Shown: positions 1-5,034 of the stretch, in pieces
Layout: every line of letters starts with the position of its first letter
Numbering within the stretch: position 1 is the stretch's first letter
Program-made: the position numbers and the translations under genes
IMG/VR virus record: IMGVR_UViG_3300049617_000088
Coordinates: 1 to 64,000 of that record
Direction: 5' to 3' (one strand)
DNA length: 64,000 nucleotides
DNA from: a virus
Notes under the pieces: model-generated
What the model saw: only the letters and a program-made list of their open reading frames with translations
Databases searched by the model: none
Told to the model about the DNA's origin: nothing

Positions 1-48
1 ACCTACTTTGGGACAAGCTGTTTTGTAACCGTATAACTGCATTTAACC
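1..48 (-). ncRNA. Y-RNA-like element Y1 (5' part; runs off the window edge)
   Basis: Minus strand GGTTAAATGCAGTTATACGGTTACA has the same AATGC..TTACA motif as six complete copies, followed by AAACAGCT as in Y2. Confidence 0.65.
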
Positions 49-60
49 TCAAAATTTATT

Positions 61-140
61 TGGTGGATACCCACAGGATTCGAACCCGAGCATTTCCCGA
101 CAATCGCCCAGCTTTTTCATAAGGACGGGTTGCGGTACCC
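61..140 (-). ncRNA. Atypical tRNA-like RNA with Ala-type acceptor stem (G3:U70, A73, CCA)
   Basis: GGGTACC/GGTATCC-A-CCA acceptor and TTCGAAT T-loop; no canonical D or anticodon arm. Confidence 0.55.
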
Positions 141-144
141 ATTT

Positions 145-290
145 GACGACAAGAATTGAAGAGTCTCGCTCAGCCGCGTCTTATTTCGCCACTCGGACAT
201 AATAATTATGTTTGGTGCCCGAGGATTGGAATTTCACCAACCACCCTCAAAGAGGAGCTGTTTTAAATGTAAACCACTTCTGCATTCGTC
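145..290 (-). ncRNA. Y-RNA-like element Y2 (YrlA-like) carrying a circularly permuted tRNA-Leu(UAA)-like domain
   Basis: GACGAATGCAGAAGTGGTTTACA ... ACTCTTCAATTCTTGTCGTC terminal stem. Insert order: TTTAAAA-CAGCT, variable hairpin CCTC-TTT-GAGG, T arm, CTCGGGC-A-CCA, 14-nt linker, GTCCGAG, D arm, GGCTG. Confidence 0.8.
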
Positions 291-377
291 TGGTGGTCAC
301 GAAGGGACTTGAACCCTTATGCCCCGAAGAGCGGGACTTTTTAAGAGTCCGGTGTATACCAATTCCACCACGTGACC
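291..377 (-). tRNA. tRNA-Leu(TAA)
   Basis: Full cloverleaf GGTCACG/CGTGACC-A-CCA; anticodon arm GGACT-CTTAAAA-AGTCC; long variable arm. Confidence 0.95.
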
Positions 378-385
378 ATATCATC

Positions 386-558
386 TAAAGCATTAACCAA
401 CGCTAGTCTTCACCTTATTGGATAAATAAGGTCCTATATCTCGGAAAATCAAGCCCGTTAACTTTTCCTCATAACCCTCTAGCCCTAGAACCTAGATTCG
501 TAGGAAACATAATCATGGATTATCATATATACGTAACTCAGATAATCGTATTGCTTTA
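386..558 (-). ncRNA. Candidate structured ncRNA between tRNAs
   Basis: Closing stem TAAAGCA/TGCTTTA with inner stems GATTATC/GATAATC, GGAAAA/TTTTCC and ACCTTATT/AATAAGGT; starts right after a tRNA CCA; no ORF. Confidence 0.4.
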
Positions 559-636
559 TGGTGGGGCAAGTGGGGATCGAACCCACCTATAGGACTTTAT
601 AAGAATCCCGGACGCTACCAGCTTACCTTTTACCCC
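559..636 (-). tRNA. tRNA-Ile(TAT)
   Basis: GGGGTAA/TTGCCCC-A-CCA; anticodon arm GGATT-CTTATAA-AGTCC; GTGGG-TTCGATC-CCCAC T arm. Confidence 0.85.
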
Positions 637-640
637 AAAC

Positions 641-698
641 TAGGCAACAAAAATTGATGGTGATATTTTTCCATGTAATCACTATCGGCATTTGCCTA
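641..698 (-). ncRNA. Y-RNA-like element Y3 (minimal, stem only)
   Basis: TAGGCAAATGCCGATAGTGATTACATGGAAAAATATCACCATCAATTTTTGTTGCCTA. Confidence 0.75.
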
Positions 699-774
699 TG
701 GCAGATACGACGGGGCTCGAACCCGCATGGACTTGCTTGACAAGCAAGTGAAATCACCCGATTTCTACGTATCT
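699..774 (-). tRNA. tRNA-Asp(GTC)
   Basis: AGATACG/CGTATCT-G-CCA; CTTGC-TTGTCAA-GCAAG. Confidence 0.9.
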
Positions 775-853
775 ATATACGGATTGAATGATATCTAAAA
801 CGATATAATATCAATAATCCTAACCAACCTAACCTTCTCGTATGCGATTGGAT

Positions 854-928
854 TGGCGGTTCCGAGGGGAATCGAACCCCCTTCAATTGCTTGACAAGCA
901 ACCCGCCTTACCAAATGCGTACGGAACC
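854..928 (-). tRNA. tRNA-Asp(GTC)
   Basis: GGTTCCG/CGGAACC-G-CCA; GTTGC-TTGTCAA-GCAAT. Confidence 0.92.
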
Positions 929-1067
929 ATTTACTTTTTTTAATAATTCTCTAGCATGCCTAGAAACTTCTTCTAGGTTTCTTTCCATCTCTTCAATCTT
1001 TTTTCGTCTTCCGCAATCTTTTTATCAAACTCTTCATCCGACATCATTGGTCCAAACACTATATAAT

Positions 1068-1319
1068 TCATAAGAATGCCTTGATACTTTCAAATCTCGT
1101 ATATTCAATATATCTGAGATGCCTAATCATTTTAGGACTTATCCTAAGGCTCCAATAATCATGTGCTTCTGGTTGAAGAAGAAACGTAGGATCTCCATAT
1201 TCATTAGTAATCGAAACATGATCAACTAAGCGATTATTATTACCAATATCATCAAGAGATATTAAAAATATCTTTTCTGGCATTTGATAAATATTATTTT
1301 CTAATTCAATAGTTAACAT
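1068..1319 (-). CDS. Hypothetical protein
   Basis: 83-aa ORF coupled to the upstream 2H gene. Confidence 0.5.
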   Translation of the reverse strand: MLTIELENNIYQMPEKIFLISLDDIGNNNRLVDHVSITNEYGDPTFLLQPEAHDYWSLRISPKMIRHLRYIEYTRFESIKAFL

Positions 1320-3567: not shown

Positions 3568-3639
3568 TGGAGTTCTGGGAGAGACTCGAACTCTCTTCCA
3601 CCGGGTTGCAATCGGTGTACCTCGCCTGAAATCCAGAAC
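3568..3639 (-). tRNA. tRNA-Cys(GCA), degenerate D arm
   Basis: GTTCTGG/CCAGAAC-T-CCA (U73); TTGCAAC loop. Confidence 0.8.
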
Positions 3640-3641
3640 AT

Positions 3642-3717
3642 TGGCGCCGCCAGCTAGACTCACACTAACATTATCTTCCTTTAATGGAAGACGTTCTAAT
3701 AATTAAACTACAGCGGC
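3642..3717 (-). tRNA. Atypical tRNA (anticodon arm TCTTCC-ATTAAA-GGAAGA)
   Basis: GCCGCTG/TGGCGGC-G-CCA; T loop TGTGAGT; identity unresolved. Confidence 0.65.
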
Positions 3718-3792
3718 TGGTGATCCCAGCGAGAATCGAACTCGCATTGAGAGGGTGAAAACCTCTTCTCCTAACCATTAGAGGATGGGACC
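3718..3792 (-). tRNA. tRNA-Glu(TTC)
   Basis: GGTCCCA/TGGGATC-A-CCA; AGAGG-TTTTCAC-CCTCT. Confidence 0.93.
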
Positions 3793-3797
3793 ATTGT

Positions 3798-3946
3798 GTA
3801 ACAACAAGAATTGAAGAAACTATTTTAACTAGCACCAGCTTCCCCATACAGTTCTAAAAGTCCAAAGGACTTGGTGGGAAATAAGAGAATCGGACTCTAA
3901 TCGTTCTTTTTCGCATAAAGATGTAATTCCTTCTGGCATTTGTTAC
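3798..3946 (-). ncRNA. Y-RNA-like element Y6 (degenerate permuted tRNA domain with internal ACCA)
   Basis: GTAACAAATGCCAGAAGGAATTACA ... GTTTCTTCAATTCTTGTTGTTAC; T-like arm AGAG-TCCGATT-CTCT, TTTCCC-A-CCA, linker hairpin, then GGGGAA. Confidence 0.75.
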
Positions 3947-4022
3947 TGGTCAGCTAAACTGGAATTGCACCAGTACAACTACGCTCCGAAGGTAGTAGGC
4001 TCCTGTTAAACCTCATTAGCTG
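3947..4022 (-). tRNA. tRNA-Pro(CGG)
   Basis: CAGCTAA/TTAGCTG-A-CCA; loop TT-CGG-AG; T loop TGCAATT. Confidence 0.8.
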
Positions 4023-4031
4023 ATAATATTT

Positions 4032-4107
4032 TGGTCAGAGATATCAGATTTGCACTGATTCCACATGGTTCCAGACCACGGATGCTCCTGTTAAACACCA
4101 ATCTCTG
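4032..4107 (-). tRNA. tRNA-Pro(TGG)
   Basis: CAGAGAT/ATCTCTG-A-CCA; CGTGG-TCTGGAA-CCATG. Confidence 0.85.
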
Positions 4108-4615
4108 ATAATTCTTTATTAAGTAATTCTCCACTGTGATGCGCAGCGTGACAGTTTCTACATAACAATACGCATTTATTTAATTCTTTATCTATCTTTT
4201 CTCTAGACCAATATCTGGCTACTGAAAAAGCAACATCTTTTTTTGTAGGATCTTTATGATGAATATCTAAGGAAGCTTTCCATTTATCAAAACCACAGTT
4301 AATACATTTGTCACCAAGCTTAGCCAACATATATTTTCTATTATCTTGACCTTTAGCTAAGGTATAAGAACAGTGACATTTGGTGCATACAGTAGTTTTG
4401 TTTCCATAAAACTTATTTGGATCATTTTCTCCACACTTACATTTTCTTGGAAAAGAAAAATCTTTTGGCTTTTTTCCTCTAGCACCACGCTTCAATTTTA
4501 AACTAAATTTCTTTATCCAATATCTAACGTTAGATTGAGACGTACTACATTCTTTTGCTATTTGTTTTAAAGTAAAACCTCGCTCAATAAGCGGGGATAA
4601 TATTTCATTTTCCAT
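4091..4615 (-). CDS. HNH homing endonuclease with N-terminal HTH
   Basis: TLKQIAKECSTSQSNVRYW helix-turn-helix; CINCG..LDIHH..KCVLLCRNCH. Confidence 0.85.
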   Translation of the reverse strand: MENEILSPLIERGFTLKQIAKECSTSQSNVRYWIKKFSLKLKRGARGKKPKDFSFPRKCKCGENDPNKFYGNKTTVCTKCHCSYTLAKGQDNRKYMLAKLGDKCINCGFDKWKASLDIHHKDPTKKDVAFSVARYWSREKIDKELNKCVLLCRNCHAAHHSGELLNKELSEIGV

Positions 4616-4697
4616 AAATATCTATATAACACAGCTTGGGAGACGATGCTGTTGGATTTAGAAAAATGTTGAAGTCGGCAGCAATTTGTTGCCAACT

Positions 4698-4797
4698 TCG
4701 GTGATACTGGATTCGAACCAGTGATCTTCTGCTCCCATTTTACAAGAGGCTATGCCCCTTTATAAGCAGACGCGATACCAGGCTTCGCTAATCACCG
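4698..4797 (-). tRNA. tRNA-Pro(TGG) with 26-nt insertion in the anticodon loop
   Basis: CGGTGAT/ATCACCG-A; TCTGC-TT[ATAAAGGGGCATAGCCTCTTGTAAAA]TGG-GA-GCAGA; canonical D and T arms; no encoded CCA. Confidence 0.8.
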
Positions 4798-4886
4798 AAA
4801 GTTATTAAATTGTCATTGAACATGCCACAAATACTTTATCTAGTTTGCTCTGACAAAATACTAGAACCGAAGTTCCTGATGTGGGC

Positions 4887-4969
4887 TGGTGGAGTAGGTA
4901 GGAATCGAACCTACTGTGCCAAAGGCAACTGCTTTACAGGCAGCGGAACACCCATTGTTCATCTACTCC
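4887..4969 (-). tRNA. tRNA-Tyr(GTA)
   Basis: GGAGTAG/CTACTCC-A-CCA; GCTGC-CTGTAAA-GCAGT; variable hairpin. Confidence 0.95.
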
Positions 4970-4972
4970 ATA

Positions 4973-5034
4973 GCTGACAAAAATTGATGGTGATTTTTTT
5001 ATCTAATTGGATGTAATCACTATCGGCATTCAGC
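4973..5034 (-). ncRNA. Y-RNA-like element Y7 (minimal, stem only)
   Basis: GCTGAATGCCGATAGTGATTACATCCAATTAGATAAAAAAATCACCATCAATTTTTGTCAGC. Confidence 0.75.

What the first reader, a model, noticed from the sequence alone, without database searches (positions are those of the whole stretch)
1..5034. Seven modular Y-RNA-like elements in a phage tRNA array: one conserved Ro60-type stem, different cargo
Seen: seven minus-strand elements (<1-48, 145-290, 641-698, 1889-2082, 2838-2995, 3798-3946, 4973-5034) share 5' RAATGC-N7-10-TTACA, and the six complete ones share 3' AATYYTWGTY. Both flanking helices covary fully (GACG/CGTC, TAGGCA/TGCCTA, GATG/CATC, TAGTG/CACTA, GTAACA/TGTTAC, GCTG/CAGC; GATAGTGAT/ATCACCATC, GTAAGGATT/AATCTTTAC, ATAAGGAT/ATCTTTAT, GAAGGAAT/GTTTCTTC). 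The loop holds nothing (Y3, Y7), a permuted tRNA (Y2, Y5, Y6) or an unrelated fold (Y4). A Ro60/TROVE gene is at 9933-11513. Known: bacterial Y RNAs bind Ro60/Rsr through a terminal stem (YrlA 5' motif GNCGAANG, matched by Y2 GACGAATG) and tether effectors with a second domain. Inference: one phage Ro60 is programmed by a panel of at least seven adaptor RNAs, more numerous and diverse than the one or two per locus I know of.
Basis: partly seen in the sequence, partly recalled or inferred. Interest (0 to 1): 0.93.

Follow-up and report, generated by a model that had tools for sequence, protein, structure and literature searches.

The report
Phage Y-RNA family inside tRNA array
A large uncultured phage carries at least six small RNA genes between its tRNA genes; all six share the stem that bacterial Y RNAs (YrlA) use to hold the Ro60 protein, which this phage also encodes, so it is a many-member, mixed-cargo version of a known RNA-protein particle.

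Summary
Six complete minus-strand elements (145-290, 641-698, 1889-2082, 2838-2995, 3798-3946, 4973-5034) share stem 1, AAUGC, stem 2, UUACA, cargo, stem 2', AAUUUUUGU-like loop and stem 1'. A seventh candidate (1-48) is cut by the contig end and rests on the 5' motif only.

- **Covariation:** a covariance model finds 83 copies in this phage and relatives. All 15 stem pairs show compensatory changes, and 94% of cells pair against 30-56% for slid controls.
- **Match to YrlA:** the module matches the stem of the Rfam YrlA consensus (CgaAUGC ... CUAc ... AaAcUuGu).
- **Link to Ro60:** the window encodes a canonical Ro60 (TROVE plus vWA). Ten further contigs found from the RNA pattern alone all encode Ro60. 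In some the RNAs lie 39-570 nt from the gene, on the same strand.
- **Cargo:** none (Y3, Y7), degenerate permuted tRNA-like domains (Y2, Y5, Y6) or a non-tRNA insert (Y4).
- **Copy number:** 2-12 per phage.
- **Processing:** most copies sit flush against tRNAs, which suggests release by tRNA-processing enzymes.

Verdict: an expanded, modular variant of the known YrlA/Ro60 system. Binding and effector roles are untested. The window copies score below Rfam's YrlA threshold. This scan has noted comparable handle-sharing RNA arrays beside Ro60-like genes on other phage DNA.

The parts
1..48 (-). Y1: candidate 5' part of an element (AAUGC-N10-UUACA), cut by the contig end
   Evidence: 5' motif only. 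The model gives no truncated hit.
145..290 (-). Y2: YrlA-type stem (GACG/CGUC; exact GNCGAAUG) carrying a degenerate permuted class II tRNA-Leu(UAA)-like domain with a 7-bp acceptor, encoded ACCA and a 14-nt linker
   Evidence: R2 34.8 bits. Orthologue alignment A4. The rotated cargo is called tRNA-Leu(taa) by ARAGORN only at 80% of the default threshold.
641..698 (-). Y3: minimal 58-nt element with both stems and an A-rich loop, no cargo
   Evidence: R2 68.5 bits. Fold. Flush with tRNA-Asp upstream and 4 nt from tRNA-Ile downstream.
1889..2082 (-). Y4: the same stems enclosing about 150 nt of non-tRNA cargo
   Evidence: R2 32.8 bits. Fold. Stem conserved in orthologues, cargo poorly conserved. 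No Rfam match.
2838..2995 (-). Y5: the same stems with a remodelled tRNA-like cargo (T arm with 8-nt loop, closed acceptor-like hairpin)
   Evidence: R2 36.6 bits. Sequence and fold. Orthologue at L014:18008-18179.
3798..3946 (-). Y6: the same stems with a V hairpin (loop AUGCGAA), T arm, acceptor with encoded ACCA plus hairpin linker, and a degenerate D arm
   Evidence: R2 39.1 bits. Group alignment A5 shows covarying T, acceptor and D helices.
4973..5034 (-). Y7: minimal 62-nt element. Its stem 2 and both loop motifs are identical to Y3; stem 1 differs and covaries.
   Evidence: R2 78.8 bits. Alignment A2. 1-3 nt upstream of tRNA-Tyr.
9933..11579 (-). Ro60 (TROVE plus vWA) gene, the presumed protein partner
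   Evidence: Pfam vWA_Ro60 1.5e-16 and TROVE 3.4e-12. PDB 9L5Y/9KOP phage phiLo Ro60 5.9e-18 and Rsr 2NVO 4.1e-15.
291..377 (-). tRNA-Leu(UAA) ending flush with the 5' end of Y2; an example of tRNA punctuation
   Evidence: ARAGORN and Rfam tRNA. Gap statistics.
46381..47682 (-). RtcB RNA ligase gene (context: phage RNA-repair kit)
   Evidence: PF01139, 304 bits.

Best explanation
The elements are a multigene family of YrlA-type Y RNAs.

- Shown: each has the two-helix 'handle' (stem 1, 5' loop AAUGC, stem 2, UUACA; on the 3' side stem 2', an AAUUUUUGU-like loop, stem 1'). This is the same module as the stem of bacterial YrlA. The family is genetically tied to a canonical Ro60 gene.
- Inferred: the RNAs are transcribed with the tRNA array. 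RNase P and the tRNA 3'-end enzymes cut them out, because they sit flush between tRNAs.
- Inferred: the handle binds the phage Ro60 ring.
- Inferred: the variable interior decides what each particle does. The tRNA-like interiors would recruit a tRNA-binding partner or an exoribonuclease, as in Rsr/Y RNA/PNPase complexes. The cargo-less copies would act as gates or competitors on Ro60.
- Inferred: the likely setting is RNA surveillance or repair during infection, alongside the phage's RtcB and Rnl2 ligases.
For: - Structure: 83 hits (81 distinct) in this phage and relatives. All 15 pairs show compensatory changes, 93.9% of cells pair against 30-56% when slid, and no shuffle of 500 reaches the covariation score.
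- Independent MAFFT/RNAalifold alignments recover the same stems.
- Identity of the handle: the Rfam YrlA consensus reads acggCgaAUGC.uuggGgaaCUAc ... uGuucCccaaAaAcUuGucGccg with the same stem-loop-stem layout. It aligns full-length to family members in relatives at 49.6, 36 and 28.5 bits and to the Mx1 copy at 32 bits.
- Link to Ro60:
  - 11 of 13 loci fetched through Ro60 carry hits, all but one marginal hit on the Ro60 strand.
  - 10 of 10 further contigs found by RNA pattern alone encode Ro60 at 48-73% identity, including 8-kb fragments.
  - About 0.6% of phage records hold a TROVE match (319 of 50,697).
  - In four relatives the RNAs lie 39-570 nt from Ro60.
- tRNA-like cargo: the T, acceptor and D helices covary, with 23 of 30 pairs compensatory.
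- Processing: 49 of 71 elements have a called tRNA within 15 nt, and 20 of 64 are preceded directly by CCA.
- Precedent: YrlA binds Rsr in Salmonella and M. smegmatis, and M. smegmatis YrlA is cut by RNase P and gains CCA (PMC4201824). Phage phiLo Ro60 binds two phage Y-like RNAs and host PNPase (PMC12135203).
Against: - No window element reaches Rfam's YrlA gathering score (best 22.6 bits against 69).
- Only Y2 has the exact GNCGAANG (9 of 64 in the family).
- In this window the elements lie 4.9-9.9 kb from Ro60, beyond the 4 kb used by Chen et al.
- Two Ro60 loci (L003, L015) show no hit in the DNA available.
- All carriers may descend from one phage lineage, so co-occurrence is not fully independent evidence.
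- Nothing here shows transcription, RNA ends or binding.
Confidence: 0.8

Rival explanations
1. The shared stem is a processing or spacer element of phage tRNA operons, for example a nuclease or chaperone site that helps mature the array. It has no functional tie to Ro60, and the Ro60 linkage only reflects shared ancestry of these phages.
For: The elements sit flush between tRNAs. All carriers belong to related phages. In this window Ro60 is 5-10 kb away.
Against: - The handle matches the consensus stem of bacterial YrlA, an RNA shown to bind Rsr (PMC4201824).
- In relatives the elements abut Ro60 itself (39-66 nt), some away from any called tRNA.
- Linkage persists down to 48% Ro60 identity.
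Confidence: 0.08
2. The cargo-bearing copies with an encoded ACCA (Y2, Y6 and their orthologues) are true permuted tRNA genes. The handle is excised, the ends are joined (for example by the phage RtcB), and RNase P plus 3' trimming open the acceptor to give working tRNAs.
For: - Y2 rotated at the handle gives a tRNA-Leu(UAA) cloverleaf with a 7-bp acceptor, A73 and CCA.
- Many orthologues keep a 7-bp acceptor plus (A/G)CCA plus a linker.
- The phage encodes RtcB and two Rnl2 ligases.
- The idea is raised for YrlA in bioRxiv 10.1101/312249.
Against: - ARAGORN accepts rotated Y2 only at a lowered threshold. Its T loop lacks U55-C56 and its D loop lacks GG.
- Y5 and Y6 are more degenerate.
- The handle is not a bulge-helix-bulge motif (by inspection).
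- Cargo-less and non-tRNA copies share the same handle, which this reading does not explain.
- No splicing endonuclease was identified.
Confidence: 0.05
3. The elements are selfish repeats (miniature mobile elements, or targets of the homing endonucleases in the array) that spread at the DNA level.
For: Two HNH genes and one GIY-YIG gene lie in or near the array. One relative has four tandem near-identical copies.
Against: - Compensatory changes keep RNA helices intact while the sequence drifts.
- Strand is strictly conserved relative to Ro60 and the tRNAs.
- Orthologous subtypes keep their order between phages.
Confidence: 0.03

Closest known systems
YrlA / YrlB Y RNAs of bacteria and mycobacteriophages (Rfam RF02553; Chen et al. 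2014, PMC4201824)
   Same: - Terminal stem with CGAAUGC on the 5' strand, a second helix, YUAY, and an 8-9-nt A..UUGU loop on the 3' strand.
- Permuted tRNA-like interior (V, T, acceptor-like and D elements).
- Same strand as Ro60, and linked to it.
- Some copies have a 7-bp acceptor suited to RNase P, as in M. smegmatis YrlA.
   Different: - 6-7 copies here and 2-12 in relatives, against 355 YrlAs in 276 genomes in that survey.
- Embedded flush in a tRNA array, 5-10 kb from Ro60 in this window.
- Cargo-less 58-62-nt forms and a non-tRNA cargo.
- Degenerate tRNA elbows.
- Scores below the Rfam threshold.
Thermus phage phiLo Ro60 with Yrl1 and Yrl2 (PMC12135203; PDB 9L5Y)
   Same: A phage-encoded Ro60 (best solved relative of this protein, 5.9e-18) with phage-encoded Y-like RNAs beside the gene. 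A complex with host PNPase was shown there.
   Different: Two RNAs directly upstream of the gene, defined by a CGAA bulge. No tRNA array and no modular cargo were described.
Deinococcus radiodurans Rsr, Yrn1 and PNPase (RYPER)
   Same: A working model in which a Y RNA handle binds Ro60 and a second module tethers an effector. Yrn1 also has tRNA-like features.
   Different: Yrn1 is not alignable to this family, and the effector for YrlA-type tRNA-like domains is unknown.
Circularly permuted tRNA genes (Cyanidioschyzon merolae and others)
   Same: The 3' half precedes the 5' half, the acceptor is closed by a linker, and the ends pair at the anticodon side.
   Different: Those use a bulge-helix-bulge motif and a splicing endonuclease to give real tRNAs. 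Here the junction is the YrlA handle and the tRNA bodies are degenerate.

Membership tests
YrlA-type Y RNA (RF02553) | 5' and 3' ends pair into a stem that carries the conserved 5'-strand motif (GNCGAAN0-1G; Rfam consensus CgaAUGC) | tested here: met
   AAUG is invariant in 64 of 64 family members and 60 of 64 fit NNYRAAUG. The exact GNCGAANG occurs in Y2 and in 9 of 64. Consensus comparison.
YrlA-type Y RNA (RF02553) | Second helix followed by YUAY, with the 3'-strand loop AaAcUuGu between the two helices | tested here: met
   UUAC(A) and an AAUUUUUGU-like loop are present in all six window elements and match the model layout.
YrlA-type Y RNA (RF02553) | tRNA-like domain (T arm, acceptor-like stem-loop, D arm) | tested here: inconclusive
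   - The helices covary in the class I group that includes Y6.
- Y2 gives a Leu-like cloverleaf only at a relaxed ARAGORN threshold.
- Y5 is remodelled.
- Y3 and Y7 have no cargo, and Y4 has non-tRNA cargo.
YrlA-type Y RNA (RF02553) | Score at or above the Rfam gathering threshold (69 bits) | tested here: not met
   The best window hit on an element is 22.6 bits (Y3). The best in relatives is 49.6 bits.
YrlA-type Y RNA (RF02553) | Encoded on the Ro60 strand and close to it (within 4 kb in Chen et al. 2014) | tested here: inconclusive
   The strand is the same throughout. The distance is 4.9-9.9 kb in the window, but 39-570 nt in four relatives.
YrlA-type Y RNA (RF02553) | Physical binding to Ro60/Rsr | not testable with these tools
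   No RNA-protein modelling or wet assay is available here.
Ro60 / Rsr (TROVE) protein | TROVE HEAT-repeat ring plus a C-terminal vWA domain | tested here: met
   PF05731 and PF25045 both score above their cut-offs. Near full-length matches to 9L5Y, 2NVO and 1YVP.
Permuted tRNA gene | Bulge-helix-bulge junction and a canonical cloverleaf after re-joining | tested here: not met
   The junction is stem, 5-nt/9-nt loop, stem. Rotated cargo is not called at the default ARAGORN threshold.

The most novel reading that the evidence does not exclude
One Ro60 ring is equipped by a panel of interchangeable handle-tagged RNAs. Some of them (the Y2 and Y6 types, with a 7-bp acceptor, A73 and encoded CCA) are opened by RNase P into two-piece Y RNAs with a free CCA end. 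These could be charged, or could serve as decoys or sensors for host tRNA-cleaving defences, feeding damaged RNA to the phage's RtcB and Rnl2 repair enzymes.
Probability: 0.15. Interest if true: 0.85.

Novelty: new variant of a known kind. Interest (0 to 1): 0.6.

Why it matters
What the second module of a bacterial Y RNA recruits, and why YrlA mimics tRNA, are still open questions.

- A phage clade that keeps one Ro60 gene but 2-12 handle-sharing RNAs with different interiors is a natural 'swap' experiment on that module. The interiors seen are none, class I tRNA-like, class II Leu-like, T-arm only, and non-tRNA.
- It defines a minimal handle of 58-62 nt.
- It suggests that tRNA-processing enzymes make Y RNA ends.
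- It shows that surveys limited to 4 kb around Ro60, and that discard hits next to tRNAs, undercount Y RNAs.
- A cultured relative, Myxococcus phage Mx1, carries two copies. One of them is annotated as a protein gene. This gives a direct experimental entry point.

Tried and rejected
- Megablast of 1-6000 against cultured phages: no match.
- MAFFT on the whole elements misaligned the 3' ends.
- A model built from Y3 and Y7 alone missed all cargo-bearing copies. It was rebuilt from 29 hits.
- The Rfam YrlA model on the window gave only about 22 bits, and nothing for Y2, Y5 or Y6.
- Y1 could not be confirmed as a truncated model hit.
- ARAGORN at the default threshold on every rotation of the Y2, Y5 and Y6 cargo found no tRNA. 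Only Y2 passes, at 80% of the threshold.
- The Y4 cargo gave no convincing consensus fold across six orthologues and no Rfam family. Its single-sequence fold is no better than shuffles (z = 0.06).
- Sequencing runs: no RNA holder listed, so no read laying was attempted.
- K-turn and bulge-helix-bulge readings of the internal loop were considered by eye and dropped. There are no tandem G-A pairs, and the loop is 5 nt against 9 nt.
- Two reviews (PMC10870794, PMC6047535) and the supplement tables of Chen et al. 2014 are not held, so per-phage YrlA counts from that paper could not be read.
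Full report
**Setting.** The window is the first 64 kb of a 95.7-kb uncultured virus contig, estimated 21% complete, so it is a fragment of a very large phage. 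Bases 1-5300 hold a dense minus-strand tRNA array (12 ARAGORN calls, 13 Rfam tRNA hits). Two HNH endonuclease genes and a small 2H-phosphoesterase-like ORF are interspersed. The ORF at 9933-11579 (minus) is a canonical Ro60. It matches Pfam vWA_Ro60 at 1.5e-16 and TROVE at 3.4e-12. Near full-length matches exist to solved Ro60 structures: phage phiLo 9L5Y/9KOP at 5.9e-18, Deinococcus Rsr 2NVO, and Xenopus 1YVP.

**Observation.** Reading the minus strand and folding each element confirms one architecture in the six complete elements:
- stem 1 of 4-7 bp;
- an unpaired AAUGC plus 0-2 nt;
- stem 2 of 6-10 bp;
- UUACA, then a variable interior;
- the 3' arm of stem 2;
- a 9-10-nt AAUYYUWGU loop;
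- the 3' arm of stem 1.

The 5' motif occurs 10 times in the window against 1.09 expected, and seven of the ten are in this array on this strand. A descriptor requiring both motifs and both helices finds five elements in the whole contig against 0.05 per shuffle. Y2 misses only because its stem 2 is weak. Y1 (1-48) is cut by the contig end and has only the 5' motif. The covariance model could not score it, so I count six elements plus one candidate.

**The family is real and widespread.** I built a model from Y3 and Y7, searched 13 loci fetched through the Ro60 protein, and rebuilt the model from 29 hits.
- Model R2 recovers all six window elements at 32.8-78.8 bits. It finds nothing else in the window or in the rest of the contig.
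- It finds 4-9 copies in each of 11 related loci, essentially all on the Ro60 strand.
- On 81 distinct sequences, all 15 modelled pairs show compensatory changes. 93.9% of cells pair, against 30-56% when the 3' partner is slid. No shuffle of 500 reaches the observed covariation score.
- That alignment was fitted to the model, so I also ran MAFFT/RNAalifold on orthologue groups. They predict the same stems independently.

**What the handle is.** The Rfam YrlA model scores the window copies at only about 22 bits. In more distant relatives it aligns full-length to members of this same family at 49.6, 36 and 28.5 bits, and to the copy in Myxococcus phage Mx1 at 32 bits. The printed alignment shows the YrlA consensus stem: six pairs, then aAUGC, then seven pairs, then CUAc. 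On the 3' side the seven pairs are followed by AaAcUuGu and then the six pairs. This is the module shared by the window elements. It includes the YUAY that Chen et al. place at the start of the variable loop, and the GNCGAAN0-1G region they propose as the Rsr contact (PMC4201824). In this phage family the invariant part is AAUG(C). The preceding Y-R positions covary with the 3' strand, so only 9 of 64 members, including Y2, spell GNCGAANG exactly.

**Link to Ro60.**
- Of the 13 Ro60-derived loci, 11 carry the RNAs. The two without are a 7.5-kb contig and a distant one.
- As a test that did not start from Ro60, I scanned IMG/VR for a short-form RNA pattern and kept only loci confirmed by R2.
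- That gave ten contigs not seen before. All ten encode Ro60 at 48-73% identity, including contigs of 8.1 and 8.8 kb.
- For scale, 319 of 50,697 cultured-phage records have a TROVE match.
- In relatives G005, G006, G007 and G008 the RNAs lie 39, 569, 66 and 44 nt from the Ro60 gene on its strand.
- Caveat: the carriers are related phages, so part of this linkage is inheritance.

**Copy number.** Counts within the DNA held are 6-7 in this phage, up to 9 in L013 and 12 in G006. There are 5 each in G004 and G007, 2 in G001 and 2 in cultured phage Mx1. A mycobacteriophage, a Streptomyces phage and a Vibrio phage with Ro60 gave one or two partial YrlA hits each. Chen et al. report 355 YrlAs in 276 genomes, after discarding hits that overlap tandem tRNAs or lie beyond 4 kb (PMC4201824).

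**Cargo.** Comparing all hits shows recurring classes with orthologues across phages.
- *Cargo-less handles* (Y3, Y7). One relative has four tandem copies.
- *Class II Leu-like domains* (the Y2 group). Rotating Y2 at the handle gives a tRNA-Leu(UAA) cloverleaf with a 7-bp acceptor, A73 and CCA. ARAGORN accepts it only at 80% of its threshold, because the T loop (UGAAAUU) and D loop lack the elbow nucleotides.
- *Class I tRNA-like domains.* The T, acceptor and D helices covary, with 23 of 30 pairs compensatory. Many have (A/G)CCA and a linker after a 7-bp acceptor. Y6 belongs here but has a degenerate D arm. Y5 is further remodelled.
- *Short forms* with a T arm and a small hairpin.
- *Long non-tRNA interiors* (the Y4 group). 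The handle is conserved but the cargo is not resolved.

The 'permuted tRNA' look is the normal YrlA design (bioRxiv 10.1101/312249).

**Processing (inferred).** Of 71 elements, 49 have an ARAGORN-called tRNA within 15 nt on at least one side. The median gap is 5 nt upstream and 8 nt downstream. Twenty of 64 are directly preceded by CCA. In the window, Y2 and Y3 start flush with tRNA-Leu and tRNA-Asp. Y3, Y4, Y6 and Y7 end 1-7 nt before a tRNA. This fits release by RNase P and the tRNA 3'-end enzymes. RNase P cleavage of a YrlA acceptor has a precedent in M. smegmatis (PMC4201824).

**Function (inferred).** By analogy with Rsr/Y RNA/PNPase complexes, and with phage phiLo Ro60, which binds two phage RNAs and host PNPase (PMC12135203), the handle would load Ro60 and the interior would choose a partner. 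Cargo-less copies would gate or compete. The contig also encodes RtcB and two Rnl2-type ligases. This echoes the Salmonella rsr-yrlBA-rtcBA operon (PMC7790460) and the RNA-repair role proposed for TROVE proteins in jumbo phages (PMC7824862).

**Novelty.** The kind is known: YrlA/Ro60, including in phages. I did not find three things in the searchable literature. These are the expansion, the tRNA-flush placement, and the range of interiors, which includes minimal and non-tRNA forms. Other agents in this scan have reported comparable handle-sharing RNA arrays beside Ro60-like genes on other phage DNA. This case differs in using the canonical YrlA handle and a canonical TROVE protein.

Noticed in passing
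window 4698-4797 (-): A tRNA with about 29 extra nucleotides inside the anticodon loop (Rfam tRNA 54.8 bits, with an insert). It looks like a short intron-like hairpin. The phage encodes RtcB.
   Followed up: partly
window 1805-1879, 2153-2236, 5122-5196, 5222-5297 (-): Several tRNAs have unusual anticodon loops: ARAGORN reads ATT, ACC, AAA and a 4-base 'ggaa' in an 8-nt loop. They may be altered to escape anticodon nucleases, or they may be non-decoding.
   Followed up: no
window 2750-2830 (-): A tRNA-like RNA with an 8-nt T loop (UAUCAAAU) scores 32.3 bits as tRNA and 30.4 bits as 'skipping-rope' RNA (cut-off 36.7). The T arm of the Y5 cargo has the same odd loop.
   Followed up: no
window 3950-4090 (-): Two short tRNA-like pieces (a T-arm-like hairpin followed by ...GACCA) lie between the HNH gene and Y6. 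No tRNA finder calls them.
   Followed up: no
window 3001-3313 (-): An ORF-poor stretch of about 310 nt directly upstream of Y5 with no Rfam match.
   Followed up: no
window 46381-47682 (-); contig 66042-66518 and 75911-76198 (-): RtcB and two Rnl2-family RNA ligase genes are present. This is an RNA-repair kit in the same phage as Ro60.
   Followed up: partly
window 6782-7489 (-): A VWA-like protein (phrog_7371, 1.5e-57) lies between the RNA array and Ro60. Mx1 also has a VWA-domain gene between its tRNA array and Ro60.
   Followed up: no
L149:551-658 (Mx1 record 45519-45626): In Myxococcus phage Mx1 the annotated 'hypothetical protein' WNM70101.1 (45524-45646) overlaps a handle-bearing RNA that sits flush after tRNA-Ile. 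It is probably not a protein gene.
   Followed up: partly
L010:14615-15103: Four tandem cargo-less copies with a 142-nt period; the last three are identical.
   Followed up: no
L012:19276-19556: A 281-nt Y4-type element whose cargo contains a second, nested copy of the 5' handle motif (GAAUGCCCGAAAGGAUUCCAU).
   Followed up: no
G004:78343-80049: The Ro60 match in this relative is split, with three in-frame stops (1 TAG, 2 TAA) in the first part. It may be a broken gene, an insertion or recoding.
   Followed up: no
L152:5357-5720: A phage-encoded tmRNA lies inside the tRNA array of relative G006, 6 kb upstream of Ro60.
   Followed up: no
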